From contig JACPJO010000002.1 of NCBI GenBank assembly GCA_016187485.1, positions 27,912 to 91,911 of the forward strand: a DNA stretch of 64,000 nucleotides. The letters run 5' to 3'. This stretch comes from Candidatus Uhrbacteria bacterium (lineage in GTDB: Bacteria; Patescibacteriota; Patescibacteriia; UBA9934; UBA10169). Position 1 is the first letter of the stretch; every line of letters starts with the position of its first letter. Below, in pieces: positions 7,674 through 10,021 of this stretch. Under the pieces are notes generated by a model that had not been told where the DNA came from, searched no databases, and was given only the letters and a program-made list of their open reading frames with translations. The position numbers and the translations under genes are program-made.

Positions 7674-7929
7674 TTTTCCGTATTTTGGCTAAATTTAGCG
7701 AAAGTACGGAGAAGGACTGGGACGATTACGGTGAGTGGGTAAACAAATGAAGTGCTGCCTCACTCTACAGTAATGTAGAGTTGGTCCAAACATGGCTATT
7801 TGCTGGGAACCAGTTGCCAACTGGGATCAGCAGGGAAGTCCTCCGTGGCGGGGACCCCTCAGAGACTAAACGCCGTGCCCCTGGTGCAATCAGGGTGAAG
7901 ATATAGTCCTCCGTCCAAAGGAAACGGAA
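7674..7929 (+). other. Intervening sequence in 23S at an E. coli L1917-equivalent site (probable small group I intron, no ORF)
   Basis: Conserved CCTAAGGT is separated from AGCGAAATTCC by about 256 nt of non-rRNA sequence. Confidence 0.45.
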
Positions 7930-7949
7930 AGCGAAATTCCTTGTCGGGT

Positions 7950-8656
7950 GAACCATGTTCCTCTGTGGTCGGAGAGAACTTGCCCGAGTATCGTGGTAAC
8001 ATGATACAAGCAATCCAGCTCATAACGGGGAATCCTCAATGAGGAAATCCCGTGGGAAGCCCCGCTAAAGGTGGGGCCCCGTAACGACTGACCCGAAAGG
8101 GGAGGTTCCGCAGGTGCGGGACAACACGCTGGCTCTTCCTGATAAGACCAACCTATGGAGATTAATCCATGGTATGTATCTGGATTCGTCGATGGTGAAG
8201 GGAGCTTTCTCGTTTCCTTTTCTGTTCGTCAAAAGATGACGATGGGAATTGAAGCGAGGCCAAGTTTCACCATCAGCCAACACAAGAGAAGTATAAATGT
8301 GCTAGAGCACATCAAGACATACTTCGGGTGTGGCACGATCCGTTACAACATCCATGATGATACATACAAATATGAAGTGAGAAGTCTGGGAGATCTTCTT
8401 TGGAAGATTATTCCGCACTTCGAGCAGTATCCTCTCAGAACGTTGAAGCAGAAAGACTTTGAAACGTTTCGAGATATTTGTTACCTCATGCACACGCAAC
8501 ACCATCGATGTTCGTCTGGTATTAGACAGATCATTGATGTCGCCTATCAAATGAACAATTTTGGGGCGAGGCGTTATACGAAAGAAGATCTCCTAAAGGT
8601 GGTGGGAAGATGAAGGTATAGTCTGAACATCATGGCAACATGATGACTAACATTGG
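7950..8656 (+). mobile_element. Intervening sequence in 23S at an L1931-equivalent site (probable group I intron) carrying a LAGLIDADG homing-endonuclease gene
   Basis: Conserved TTGTCGGGT is separated from AGTTCCGACCTGCACG by about 707 nt. It contains ORF 8155..8613. Confidence 0.55.
8155..8613 (+). CDS. LAGLIDADG-family homing endonuclease (single-motif, I-CreI-like)
   Basis: N-terminal [13 protein letters not shown] motif, about 150 aa. Lies wholly inside 23S intervening sequence B. Local GC is lower than in the flanking rRNA. Confidence 0.75.
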   Translation: MEINPWYVSGFVDGEGSFLVSFSVRQKMTMGIEARPSFTISQHKRSINVLEHIKTYFGCGTIRYNIHDDTYKYEVRSLGDLLWKIIPHFEQYPLRTLKQKDFETFRDICYLMHTQHHRCSSGIRQIIDVAYQMNNFGARRYTKEDLLKVVGR

Positions 8657-9285
8657 AGTTCCGACCTGCACGAATGGCATAACGACTTGACGACTGTCTC
8701 AACGATCAACTCGGCGAAATTGCAAGAGGAGTGAAGATGCTCCTTACTCGTAGTTAGACGAAAAGACCCCGTGAAGCTTTACTACAACTTGGTATTGGTT
8801 TCAGATTTCGCATGTTGAGCGTAGGTGGGAGCTTCGGCGCCAATGAGACACCACCCTTGCGTTATTTGAAGTCTAACTTCGGACCGTGAATCCGGTTCGA
8901 AGGACAGTATCTGGTGGGTAGTTTGACTGGGGCGGTAGCCTCCCAAAAAGTAACGGAGGCGTTTACAAAGGTTGGCTTAGCGCGGATGGAAATCGCGCTG
9001 AAAGGGCAAACCCACAAGCCAGCTTTACTGCAAGACTGACACGTCGCGCAGTCGCGAAAGCGGAAGTTAGTGATCCGACCGTACGACATAGGACGGCGGA
9101 AGCTCAACGGATAAAAGCTACTCCGGGGATAACAGGCTGATCAGGCCCAAGCGTCCACAGCGACGGCCTGGTTTGGCACCTCGATGTCGGCTCATCGCAT
9201 CCTGGGGGTGAAGAAGCTCCCAAGGGTTTGGCTGTTCGCCAATTAAAGCGGTACGCGAGCTGGGTTCAGAACGTCGTGAGACAGT

Positions 9286-10021
9286 GGACAAAACCGCGCT
9301 GTCTATAAATTCGACTATATGCTGGAAACCCTGAATGAGTCTCAACAGGAGTAGAGGCTCAAAGAATCTCACACTACGTGCTATGCTTATTAAATATGGC
9401 ACGTGAAAATGTGTTGAGTGCAGGCAATCAGCAGGGAAGATTACATCGTCTTCAACCGTGGTATATCAGTGGTTTTGTGGATGGGGAAGGAAGCTTTCAT
9501 GTGGCGCTCTATAAAGATGCACACATGAAGACGGGATGGAAAATCATCCCAGAATTCCACGTCTCCCAACGTATAAGCAGTCGCCAAGTTCTTGATAGGC
9601 TTGTGGACTTCTTTCGTTGTGGGTATGTAAAACCAAACCATAGAACAAGTTCTTCCGATTTGACGTACGTATATGTTGTACGGGATCGCGGAGATCTTCT
9701 AAAGAAAATCATCCCTTTCTTTCAGCGGCATAACCTCCAGACGGAGAAAGTAAAAGACTTTCAACTGTTTGCGAGAGTTGTACAGCTGATGGAAAAGGGG
9801 GAACACCGGAACACCAACGGAGTAAAAAAGATTTTCGAGATCGCATACCAGATGAATGGTGGCGGTCGGTATCGACGGAAAAAAATACAAGCGATGTAAA
9901 ACCCTCAGAGACTATATGTCGAATTCCGCCATTTGCGGAAAAGATATAGTCCGAACTGCATGGCGACATGCAGAGAACACAAGAAATTGTGTTCCTCCAC
10001 AATTGTGGAAGTAACATATTG
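9286..10021 (+). mobile_element. Intervening sequence in 23S at an L2593-equivalent site (probable group I intron) carrying a LAGLIDADG homing-endonuclease gene
   Basis: Conserved GTCGTGAGACAGT is separated from TCGGTCTCCTATC...CTAGTACGAGAGGACCGG by about 736 nt. It contains ORF 9378..9899. Confidence 0.55.
9378..9899 (+). CDS. LAGLIDADG-family homing endonuclease
   Basis: [16 protein letters not shown] motif. The probable start is the Met at 9396. About 170 aa, inside 23S intervening sequence C. Confidence 0.75.

What the first reader, a model, noticed from the sequence alone, without database searches (positions are those of the whole stretch)
7674..10021. 23S rRNA gene interrupted three times at classic group-I-intron sites; two LAGLIDADG endonuclease genes
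Conserved 23S blocks are split at positions equivalent to E. coli L1917, L1931 and L2593 by about 256, 707 and 736 nt of foreign sequence. The latter two encode [13 protein letters not shown]-type LAGLIDADG endonucleases, which stretches the 23S gene to about 4.8 kb. A triple-intron 23S is unusual for bacteria but characteristic of CPR/Patescibacteria-like genomes. It therefore serves both as a taxonomic clue and as a possibly new intron/HEG set. The L1917 element, with no ORF and only about 256 nt, is small for a group I intron and may be a different kind of intervening sequence.
Basis: partly seen in the sequence, partly recalled or inferred. Interest (0 to 1): 0.5.

Follow-up and report, generated by a model that had tools for sequence, protein, structure and literature searches.

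The report
Three group I introns in 23S
The 23S ribosomal RNA gene of this Candidatus Uhrbacteria genome carries three self-splicing group I introns, two with homing-endonuclease genes; this is ordinary for the group, except that the smallest intron ends in A instead of the near-universal G.

Summary
The three insertions and both LAGLIDADG ORFs are real and lie at the stated coordinates. All three E. coli site labels are wrong. The true sites are after U1931 (7675-7929, 255 nt, no ORF), U1951 (7950-8655, 706 nt, HEG 8155-8613) and U2604 (9286-10021, 736 nt, HEG 9396-9899).

All three are group I introns, with U.G-containing P1 helices, P10 pairings and compensatory changes across P2-P9 in homologues. 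The small element is not another kind of intervening sequence: it passes Rfam's Intron_gpI gathering score.

The genome is Candidatus Uhrbacteria (CPR). Tsurumaki et al. 2024 already list positions 1931, 1952 and 2604 as CPR 23S insertion hot spots carrying single-domain LAGLIDADG_1 genes. The finding is therefore a new member of a known kind.

One feature was not anticipated. The L1931 intron ends in A (A7929) where relatives have the canonical terminal G. The only precedent I know is Coxiella Cbu.L1917.

Across 71 classifiable relatives, the terminal nucleotide co-varies with the P7 guanosine-binding pair:
- G-C pair with terminal G or A
- A-U pair with terminal U
- U-A pair with terminal C

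I found no report of this pattern in the held literature. It needs a splicing experiment.

The parts
5518..10300 (+). 23S rRNA gene (about 4.8 kb with introns, about 3.07 kb spliced); the 3' end is approximate
   Evidence: Rfam LSU_rRNA_bacteria, 2073 bits. Block map against E. coli rrlH up to Ec2884 = 10284.
5518..7674 (+). Exon 1 (Ec1-1931), ending ...CCUAAGGU
   Evidence: sequence
7675..7929 (+). Intron 1: ORF-less group I intron at L1931 (255 nt). The terminal nucleotide is A7929 instead of omega-G.
   Evidence: Rfam Intron_gpI, 62 bits against a gathering score of 50. Covariation on 13 homologues.
7719..7728 (+). Intron-1 segment GGGACGAUUA, complementary to 5'-exon bases 7661-7669 (the 3' strand of helix 69, Ec1917-1926)
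   Evidence: Helix 1. At two positions the intron tracks exon changes in 5 of 13 sequences. The same is seen in the 25 GTDB members.
7754..7760 (+). Intron-1 internal guide sequence GCUGCCU. GCU pairs with AGC 7930-7932 (P10). GCCU pairs with AGGU 7671-7674 (P1, with the U7674.G7757 wobble).
   Evidence: helices 2 and 4: 100% and 97% of cells paired
7862..7868 (+). Intron-1 P7 5' strand. G7864 is the guanosine-binding base (Tetrahymena G264 equivalent) and pairs with C7908.
   Evidence: (helix 11)
7930..7949 (+). Exon 2: a 20-nt mini-exon, AGCGAAAUUCCUUGUCGGGU (Ec1932-1951)
   Evidence: 20/20 identity to E. coli
7950..8655 (+). Intron 2: group I intron at L1951 (706 nt). IGS at 7976-7987, ORF in the P8 loop, omega-G = G8655.
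   Evidence: Rfam Intron_gpI, 28.4 bits, E 3e-5, with the model split by the ORF. 35 of 65 pairs compensatory in 8 homologues.
8155..8613 (+). HEG 1: single-motif LAGLIDADG homing endonuclease, 152 aa (…[13 protein letters not shown]…)
   Evidence: PF00961, E 3.6e-26. 463 relatives. The relatives examined all sit at the same L1951 site (L004, L005, L006, L007, L008). Matches to I-OnuI/I-SmaMI halves at about E 1e-40.
8656..9285 (+). Exon 3 (Ec1952-2604). Its first base, G8656, replaces E. coli A1952.
   Evidence: The P10 partner in the IGS is U, or C in L004 and L007. G occurs at this position in 3 of 54 intron-less alleles.
9286..10021 (+). Intron 3: group I intron at L2604 (736 nt). IGS at 9293-9303, ORF in the P6a loop, omega-G = G10021.
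   Evidence: Rfam Intron_gpI, 27.2 bits, E 9e-5. 37 of 89 pairs compensatory in 7 homologues.
9396..9899 (+). HEG 2: single-motif LAGLIDADG homing endonuclease, 167 aa from ATG 9396 (the ORF is open from GTG 9378)
   Evidence: PF00961, E 6.7e-22. 683 relatives, best 81%, mostly 167-169 aa. Found at the same site in L129, L131 and L132. 43% identical to HEG 1.
10022..10300 (+). Exon 4 (Ec2605 to the 3' end)
10340..10446 (+). 5S rRNA gene immediately downstream
   Evidence: Rfam 5S_rRNA, 78.7 bits

Best explanation
This is the single 23S rRNA gene region of a Candidatus Uhrbacteria (CPR/Patescibacteria) genome. It is interrupted by three group I introns inserted after E. coli positions U1931, U1951 and U2604.

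Inferred mechanism. The gene is transcribed as one pre-rRNA. Each intron folds into the group I ribozyme core. Its internal guide sequence pairs with the last bases of the upstream exon (P1, with a U.G wobble at the cut site) and with the first bases of the downstream exon (P10). An exogenous guanosine cuts the 5' splice site. The freed exon end then attacks the bond after the intron's last nucleotide and joins the exons.

Introns 2 and 3 each encode a single-domain LAGLIDADG endonuclease. By analogy with characterised relatives, it acts as a homodimer, cuts intron-less 23S alleles at the insertion site, and spreads the intron by repair (homing).

Intron 1 has no endonuclease gene. It lies 20 bp from intron 2, so it probably spreads or persists by co-conversion with intron 2. 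Its last nucleotide is A rather than G, so its second splicing step must be non-canonical and is probably slow, as reported for Coxiella Cbu.L1917.

Shown here: the positions, the folds and their covariation, the protein family, the taxonomy and the recurrence at these sites. Inferred: actual splicing, endonuclease activity and hitch-hiking.
For: Junctions: blastn against E. coli rrlH and the junction sequences.

Intron 1:
- Rfam Intron_gpI, 62 bits against a gathering score of 50.
- On 13 homologues, 96.9% of cells pair, against 36-46% for slid controls. 41 of 72 pairs have changes on both sides. 0 of 500 shuffles reach the observed values. P1, P7 and P10 are included.

Intron 2: the Rfam hit is split by the ORF. 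35 of 65 pairs are compensatory. P1 is UCGGGU/GCCCGA. The P10 partner co-varies with exon base +1.

Intron 3: Rfam hit. 37 of 89 pairs are compensatory. P1 is GACAGU/GCUGUC. The terminal G is present in all 7 homologues.

HEGs: Pfam LAGLIDADG_1 above cut-off, with GFVDGEGS motifs that keep the acidic residue. Full-length relatives sit at the same sites in other CPR genomes. Solved relatives include the I-OnuI family, I-CeuI and an archaeal rRNA-intron endonuclease.

Taxonomy: UvrA is 100% identical to a Candidatus Uhrbacteria protein.

Literature: CPR 23S genes carry insertions in 82% of cases. Group I introns with LAGLIDADG_1 genes occur at 1917, 1931, 1952, 2593, 2604 and 2657, and I-ShaI was shown to be an active homodimer (PMC11270868).

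The intron 1 + intron 2 pair recurs in L004, L005 and L006.
Against: No RNA data exist, so splicing is inferred for all three introns.

Intron 1 lacks omega-G (A7929). By established group I chemistry this should impair exon ligation.

Introns 2 and 3 are below Rfam's gathering score, which is explained by the ORF insertions but is still a failed formal threshold.

No obvious ribosome-binding site was looked for upstream of the HEGs.

Endonuclease activity and homodimer state are by analogy only.
Confidence: 0.85

Rival explanations
1. Intron 1 is a crippled group I intron that no longer completes splicing. Either it stays inside the mature 23S rRNA, as reported for the Simkania negevensis intron at the same L1931 site. 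Or only the first step occurs and the 23S rRNA is fragmented at 1931. Introns 2 and 3 splice normally.
For: The terminal nucleotide is A7929, whereas 37 relatives have G at exactly that position. Intron 1 has no ORF, which fits a late stage of the homing cycle. An 'unspliced group I intron in 23S rRNA' at L1931 is on record (title cited in PMC11270868 ref 28 and PMC1995217).
Against: The whole fold keeps accumulating compensatory changes among members that lack omega-G. P1, P10, the U.G wobble and the G-C binding pair are intact in the window copy. Across the family, the terminal nucleotide co-varies with the binding pocket, which implies that the terminal nucleotide is still used. The Coxiella intron with terminal A is reported as self-splicing (title; details from my own memory).
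Confidence: 0.12
2. The inserts are not introns. They are RNase III-processed intervening sequences or lineage-specific expansion segments of the 23S rRNA.
For: CPR 23S genes also contain short non-intron insertions (PMC11270868). This gene has about 240 extra nt in domains I-II.
Against: All three inserts have group I cores with P7, J8/7 and P3 signatures, and guide sequences complementary to both exon ends. They lie in the most conserved, functionally central parts of domains IV and V, not in the known IVS helices 9, 25 and 45. Two carry homing-endonuclease genes.
Confidence: 0.02
3. The region is a dead rRNA pseudogene or an assembly chimera, so the insertions have no biological consequence.
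For: This is a metagenome-assembled genome. An exact look-up of HEG 1 found no second assembly.
Against: Exon blocks are intact and highly conserved (20/20 for the mini-exon; 90% to L004 over exon 3). The 5S gene follows in the normal position. Both ORFs are full length relative to their families. The same architecture occurs on independent contigs (L004, L005, L006).
Confidence: 0.01

Closest known systems
CPR 23S rRNA insertion hot spots 23IS7 (1931), 23IS8 (1952) and 23IS13 (2604), from Tsurumaki et al. 2024, J Bacteriol (PMC11270868)
   Same: Same three positions, group I intron structure, single-domain LAGLIDADG_1 ORFs and CPR host. Several introns per gene is the rule there: 82% of genes carry insertions, with up to 16 per gene.
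   Different: The held text of that paper maps insertions by alignment to E. coli and states that the boundaries are not exact splice sites. Splice-site anatomy, the terminal nucleotide and the guide sequences are not described there.
[quoted passage not shown] 2007; title cited in PMC11270868 ref 29)
   Same: Two group I introns flank a very short exon (34 bp there, 20 bp here). The downstream one, at L1951, carries a LAGLIDADG gene (720 nt and 157 aa there, per PMC1995217; 706 nt and 152 aa here). The upstream ORF-less one lacks the canonical terminal G. From memory, it ends in A and splices slowly.
   Different: The upstream intron sits at L1917 in Coxiella and at L1931 here. The host is a gammaproteobacterium rather than CPR. 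There is a third intron here, at L2604.
Triple-intron 23S of Synechococcus sp. C9 (L1917, L1931, L2593) and the L1931 introns of Thermotoga and Simkania (PMC1995217)
   Same: [quoted passage not shown] L1931 is shared.
   Different: Those L1931 introns carry HEGs (654-700 nt); the window's is ORF-less at 255 nt. The sites L1951 and L2604 replace L1917 and L2593.
Homodimeric single-motif LAGLIDADG endonucleases (I-CreI, I-CeuI, I-Vdi141I, I-ShaI)
   Same: One LAGLIDADG_1 domain of about 150-170 aa with a GFVDGEGS-type motif, encoded in rRNA introns.
   Different: By sequence, both HEGs are closer to the individual halves of monomeric I-OnuI-family enzymes (E about 1e-40) than to I-CeuI (E 4e-6 and 1e-12). 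Target sites and activity are untested.

Membership tests
Group I intron (Rfam RF00028) | Score at or above the curated gathering threshold (50 bits) | tested here: inconclusive
   Intron 1 scores 62.0 bits (met). Intron 2 scores 28.4 bits (E 3e-5) and intron 3 scores 27.2 bits (E 9e-5), both below threshold because the ORFs split the model.
Group I intron | P1 helix between the 5'-exon end and an internal guide sequence, with a U.G wobble at the splice site, plus P10 with the 3' exon | tested here: met
   Intron 1: AGGU/GCCU with U7674.G7757, and P10 GCU/AGC. Intron 2: UCGGGU/GCCCGA, and P10 GAACUU. Intron 3: GACAGU/GCUGUC, and P10 CGGU/ACCG. All are conserved or co-varying in homologues.
Group I intron | Conserved P3-P9 core supported by compensatory base changes | tested here: met
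   41 of 72, 35 of 65 and 37 of 89 pairs have changes on both sides. For intron 1, slid and shuffled controls fall far below the observed values.
Group I intron | G-C guanosine-binding pair in P7 | tested here: met
   Intron 1: G7864-C7908. Intron 2: GACUG/UAGUC. Intron 3: GACUA/UAGUC.
Group I intron | 3'-terminal guanosine (omega-G) | tested here: not met
   Met for intron 2 (G8655) and intron 3 (G10021). Not met for intron 1: A7929 occupies the position where 37 relatives have G. Intron 1 is therefore filed as a group I intron with a non-canonical terminus, not as a canonical member.
Group I intron | Self-splicing in vitro or in vivo | not testable with these tools
   No transcript data are available.
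LAGLIDADG homing endonuclease (Pfam PF00961) | Domain match above the curated cut-off, with an intact LAGLIDADG motif and its acidic residue | tested here: met
   92.4 and 78.7 bits against a cut-off of 23.1. The motifs are SGFVDGEGS in both.
LAGLIDADG homing endonuclease | Site-specific cleavage of the intron-less allele; homodimer for single-domain forms | not testable with these tools
   By analogy only, to I-ShaI (PMC11270868) and the solved relatives.
CPR rRNA insertion hot spots (Tsurumaki 2024) | Insertion at a catalogued 23S position in a CPR genome | tested here: met
   Positions 1931, 1951/1952 and 2604 match the list. The host is Candidatus Uhrbacteria.
RNase III-processed 23S intervening sequence (IVS) | Extended stem-loop replacing a helix tip (H9, H25, H45), with no ribozyme core, excised without ligation | tested here: not met
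   The inserts lie between H69 and H71 and in the peptidyl-transferase region, and they have group I cores.

The most novel reading that the evidence does not exclude
The window's L1931 intron (terminal A, G-C pocket) is one state of a CPR-wide intron family in which the terminal nucleotide and the P7 nucleotide-binding base pair have co-evolved: G-C with G or A, A-U with U, U-A with C. If so, natural group I ribozymes have re-specified the 'guanosine' pocket for other nucleotides, and possibly use a non-guanosine cofactor in the first step.
Probability: 0.4. Interest if true: 0.75.

Novelty: new member of a known kind. Interest (0 to 1): 0.4.

Why it matters
As flagged, the finding mainly confirms a CPR origin and adds one more example to a published catalogue of CPR rRNA introns.

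What could matter is the terminal A of the L1931 intron, together with the pattern in its relatives. The terminal G and its G-C binding pair are treated as near-invariant in group I catalysis. From memory, the only natural exception described is one Coxiella intron.

This family has dozens of members ending in A, U or C, with matching pocket changes. It would give ribozyme biochemists a natural series for testing how nucleotide specificity at the active site is set.

It would also raise the question of how a single-copy rRNA gene tolerates slow or altered splicing.

Tried and rejected
1. The Rfam LSU alignment reported the 23S as 5518-9317 covering the whole model. That is an artefact of forcing the 3' domain in before intron 3. 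I replaced it with the blastn block map against E. coli rrlH.

2. The mir-576 hit at 7652-7736 is spurious. It reflects the long hairpin formed by the exon/anti-H69 pairing plus P1a.

3. I considered a 5' splice site for intron 1 after U1926, which forms a wobble with GGGAC. I rejected it because the mature rRNA needs AAGGU. In addition, the conserved GCUGCCU guide fits U1931|A1932 exactly, and its variants preserve pairing.

4. I considered a cryptic omega-G at G7927. It would add AA to a universally conserved stretch, and homologues with a terminal G place it exactly where A7929 sits.

5. I considered that intron 2 leaves the rRNA one base short. I rejected this because P10 covariation and intron-less GAG alleles support G at Ec1952.

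6. The genome-contig scan used a pattern with only 15 specified bases. The taxonomic spread of the family is therefore incomplete.

7. An exact look-up of HEG 1 found nothing.

8. The Raghavan 2007 paper is not held, and literature searches for non-G terminal nucleotides found nothing further. The Coxiella details therefore rest on a cited title and on my memory.

9. I did not run structure prediction or a representative-library search. The protein family assignment was already unambiguous.
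Full report
OBSERVATION

Rfam finds a bacterial LSU rRNA gene starting at 5518, a 5S gene at 10340-10446, and a group I intron hit above threshold at 7731-7928. Rfam's LSU alignment is unreliable around the inserts, so I mapped the gene against E. coli rrlH (L001) with blastn.

The conserved blocks are:
- Ec1564-1931 = 7321-7674
- Ec1932-1951 = 7930-7949 (20/20 identical)
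- Ec1953-2604 = 8657-9285
- Ec2605-2782 = 10022-10199

Two ORFs inside the second and third block (8155-8613; 9378/9396-9899) match Pfam LAGLIDADG_1 far above cut-off. The gene spans about 4.8 kb.

The E. coli labels are wrong. Helix 69, which contains 1917, is intact. The sequence reads straight through 2593. The insertions follow U1931, U1951 and U2604.

WHAT THE INSERTS ARE

Intron 3 (9286-10021) is a textbook case.
- The exon end GACAGU pairs with GCUGUC (9298-9303), giving a U.G wobble at the splice site.
- CGGU of the next exon pairs with ACCG.
- The intron ends in G10021.
- The 3' half carries the P7/J8/7 signatures.
- Seven homologues at the same site (L129, L131 Kerfeldbacteria, L132, L122, L142, L102) give 37 of 89 predicted pairs with compensatory changes.
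- The ORF sits in the P6a loop, and both P6a strands are coding.

Intron 2 (7950-8655) pairs UCGGGU with GCCCGA (7982-7987) and has its ORF in the P8 loop. Eight homologues, including two ORF-less ones (L205, L228), give 35 of 65 compensatory pairs.

The apparent missing A at Ec1952 resolves as follows. The intron ends at G8655, and the exon resumes with G8656, so the mature rRNA has G where E. coli has A1952. Two lines support this. The guide base that pairs with exon +1 is U, or C in L004 and L007, where only G fits. And G occurs at this position in 3 of 54 intron-less alleles among the fetched loci. This also explains why Tsurumaki et al. list the site as 1952.

It is a group I intron.
- It scores 62 bits on Rfam against a gathering score of 50.
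- On 13 ORF-less homologues, a structure with P1, P1a, P2-P9, P10 and the P7 pseudoknot pairs 96.9% of cells. Slid controls reach 36-46%.
- 41 of 72 pairs change on both sides, and no shuffle of 500 reaches the observed values.
- Its guide sequence GCUGCCU (7754-7760) lies about 80 nt into the intron. It is the complement of AGGU|AGC with the wobble at U1931, which fixes both splice sites.
- Family variants of the guide (GCUACCU, GUUGCCU, GCUGCUU) all preserve pairing.

A second conserved segment, GGGACGAUUA (7719-7728), pairs with the 3' strand of helix 69 in the upstream exon and tracks its sequence changes. I read this as an extra exon-holding or anti-H69 pairing. That reading is inference.

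THE UNEXPECTED FEATURE

The last nucleotide of intron 1 is A7929. I collected 102 unique members of this L1931 family from two collection scans. In many of them the equivalent position, directly after the P9 hairpin and before AGCG, is the canonical G. In others it is A, U or C.

For the 71 members in which P7 could be read, the terminal nucleotide follows the P7 base pair that binds guanosine in known group I introns (Tetrahymena G264-C311 equivalent):
- G-C pair with terminal G (37) or A (16)
- A-U pair with terminal U (10 of 10)
- U-A pair with terminal C (5), plus one U preceded by C

An unbiased mutual-information scan of every alignment column against the terminal nucleotide ranks exactly these two pocket positions first, at 1.18 and 1.10 bits; the next best is 0.76.

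A rough neighbour-joining tree scatters the states:
- L006 (A-U/U) sits among G-C/A members.
- L134 and L150 lie apart from the main U-A/C group.
- L122 (A) and L223 (G) are near-identical.

Members with altered pockets still pass Rfam's group I threshold (L006 at 54.4 bits, L144 at 50.7 bits).

The window copy has the G-C pocket (G7864-C7908) and terminal A.

The only precedent I know is Coxiella Cbu.L1917. The 2007 title, cited in PMC11270868, says two self-splicing introns flank a 34-bp exon and one lacks the canonical omega-G. That it ends in A and splices slowly is from my memory of Raghavan et al. 2009, which is not held. Searches of the held literature found no description of this pattern.

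CONTEXT AND TAXONOMY

The window's UvrA is 100% identical to an NCBI protein of a Candidatus Uhrbacteria bacterium. The next hits, at 66-71%, are Uhrbacteria and Patescibacteria.

HEG 1 has 463 relatives and HEG 2 has 683. The named ones come from Uhrbacteria, Magasanikbacteria, Kerfeldbacteria and Patescibacteria. In every context I fetched, they sit at the same 23S site.

The closest 23S (L004, 78-90% over the exons) has the same L1931 + L1951 pair but no L2604 intron. An Uhrbacteria genome (L006) has about seven inserts and five HEGs.

Tsurumaki et al. 2024 (PMC11270868) report the following:
- insertions in 82% of CPR 23S genes, with up to 16 per gene
- group I introns with LAGLIDADG_1 genes at 1917, 1931, 1952, 2593, 2604 and 2657
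- 2604 not previously reported in other bacteria
- an active homodimeric example, I-ShaI

It is not what this sequence shows.

MECHANISM AND RIVALS

Best supported: all three are self-splicing group I introns removed from the pre-23S rRNA. Introns 2 and 3 are mobile through their homodimeric LAGLIDADG endonucleases. Intron 1, which has no ORF and lies 20 bp upstream of intron 2, persists by hitch-hiking on intron 2's co-conversion tract. It performs its second step with a terminal A.

The main rival is that intron 1 no longer completes splicing and is retained, or fragments the rRNA, as reported for the Simkania L1931 intron. Against this rival, the fold continues to co-vary among members that lack omega-G, and the pocket/terminus covariation implies that the terminal nucleotide is still used. 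Only RNA data can settle the question.

The IVS/expansion-segment and pseudogene readings are contradicted by the ribozyme cores, the guide sequences and the intact exons.

VERDICT

The case is a new member of a well-documented kind.

What lifts it above routine is the non-canonical terminus of the L1931 intron and the family-wide pocket/terminus covariation found while checking it. That pattern rests on sequence comparison only, from capped scans, and needs biochemical testing.

Noticed in passing
Loci L006, L066, L134, L143, L144, L150, L156, L207, L212, L231, L237, L238, L239, L246 and others (L1931 introns); window equivalents G7864, C7908, A7929: In the L1931 intron family, the last intron nucleotide co-varies with the P7 guanosine-binding pair: G-C with G or A, A-U with U, U-A with C. 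These two pocket columns carry the highest mutual information with the terminal nucleotide of all alignment columns.
   Followed up: partly
L024:1124-1301, L054:2477-2680, L103:1980-2182 and about 35 more loci: A 'mini' subfamily of L1931 inserts (178-250 nt) shares the 5' region, guide sequence, P2, P3, P7-P9 and a terminal G, but lacks the whole P4-P6 domain. It has an A-U pair instead of the U.G wobble at the 5' splice site (guide GCUACCU). The three scanned (L024, L054, L103) gave no Intron_gpI match at Rfam's gathering score.
   Followed up: partly
window 7719-7728 with 7661-7669: Intron 1 contains a 9-10 nt segment complementary to the 3' strand of 23S helix 69 in the upstream exon. It tracks helix-69 sequence changes across genomes, and it would compete with formation of helix 69 in the precursor.
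   Followed up: partly
window 8656 (Ec1952): The mature 23S is predicted to have G where E. coli and most fetched CPR alleles have A1952, in the helix 71 loop. The same G occurs in a few intron-less CPR alleles (L028, L142, L246).
   Followed up: partly
L006:2109-9961 (Candidatus Uhrbacteria GCA_016206155.1); L129:5676-6636: Other Uhrbacteria 23S genes are far more interrupted. L006 has about seven inserts and five HEGs (LAGLIDADG_1 and _2). L129 has a 208-nt insert at about 2593/2594, separated from the L2604 intron by a 10-nt exon.
   Followed up: partly
L058, L078, L117, L134, L143, L208, L210, L224, L227, L241 (sequence ...GTCTGGTAA|TTGAATTGCC or ...GGTAA|CTGGATTGCC): A different insertion begins after Ec1953, two bases downstream of the L1951 site, in many Paceibacteria-like 23S genes. 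L101 has another insertion at about Ec1943.
   Followed up: no
window 5742-6428: Relative to E. coli, the 23S gene has about 240 extra nt in domains I-II: about +54 near Ec225-233, about +126 between Ec262 and 378, and about +64 between Ec539 and 669. These may be expansion segments or IVS-type inserts and were not analysed.
   Followed up: no
window 39529-40013 (-): The RNase P RNA (class A, 132 bits) is 485 nt against a 367-position model. It has a 77-nt insertion in one hairpin and several smaller ones. No intron signature was seen.
   Followed up: partly
whole window 1-64000: There is no 16S rRNA gene within 64 kb. The 23S-5S pair is unlinked from 16S and is flanked by protein-coding genes and tRNAs (tRNA-Leu 3838-3922 upstream, tRNA-Ala 12323-12398 downstream on the other strand).
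   Followed up: no
L047 (CAZFUP010000012.1) and L061 (CAZYNT010000015.1): Two GTDB genomes labelled 'uncultured Gammaproteobacteria' carry a 23S with the CPR-type L1931 intron. L047 is among the better matches to this window's exons. This may reflect mis-binned contigs.
   Followed up: no
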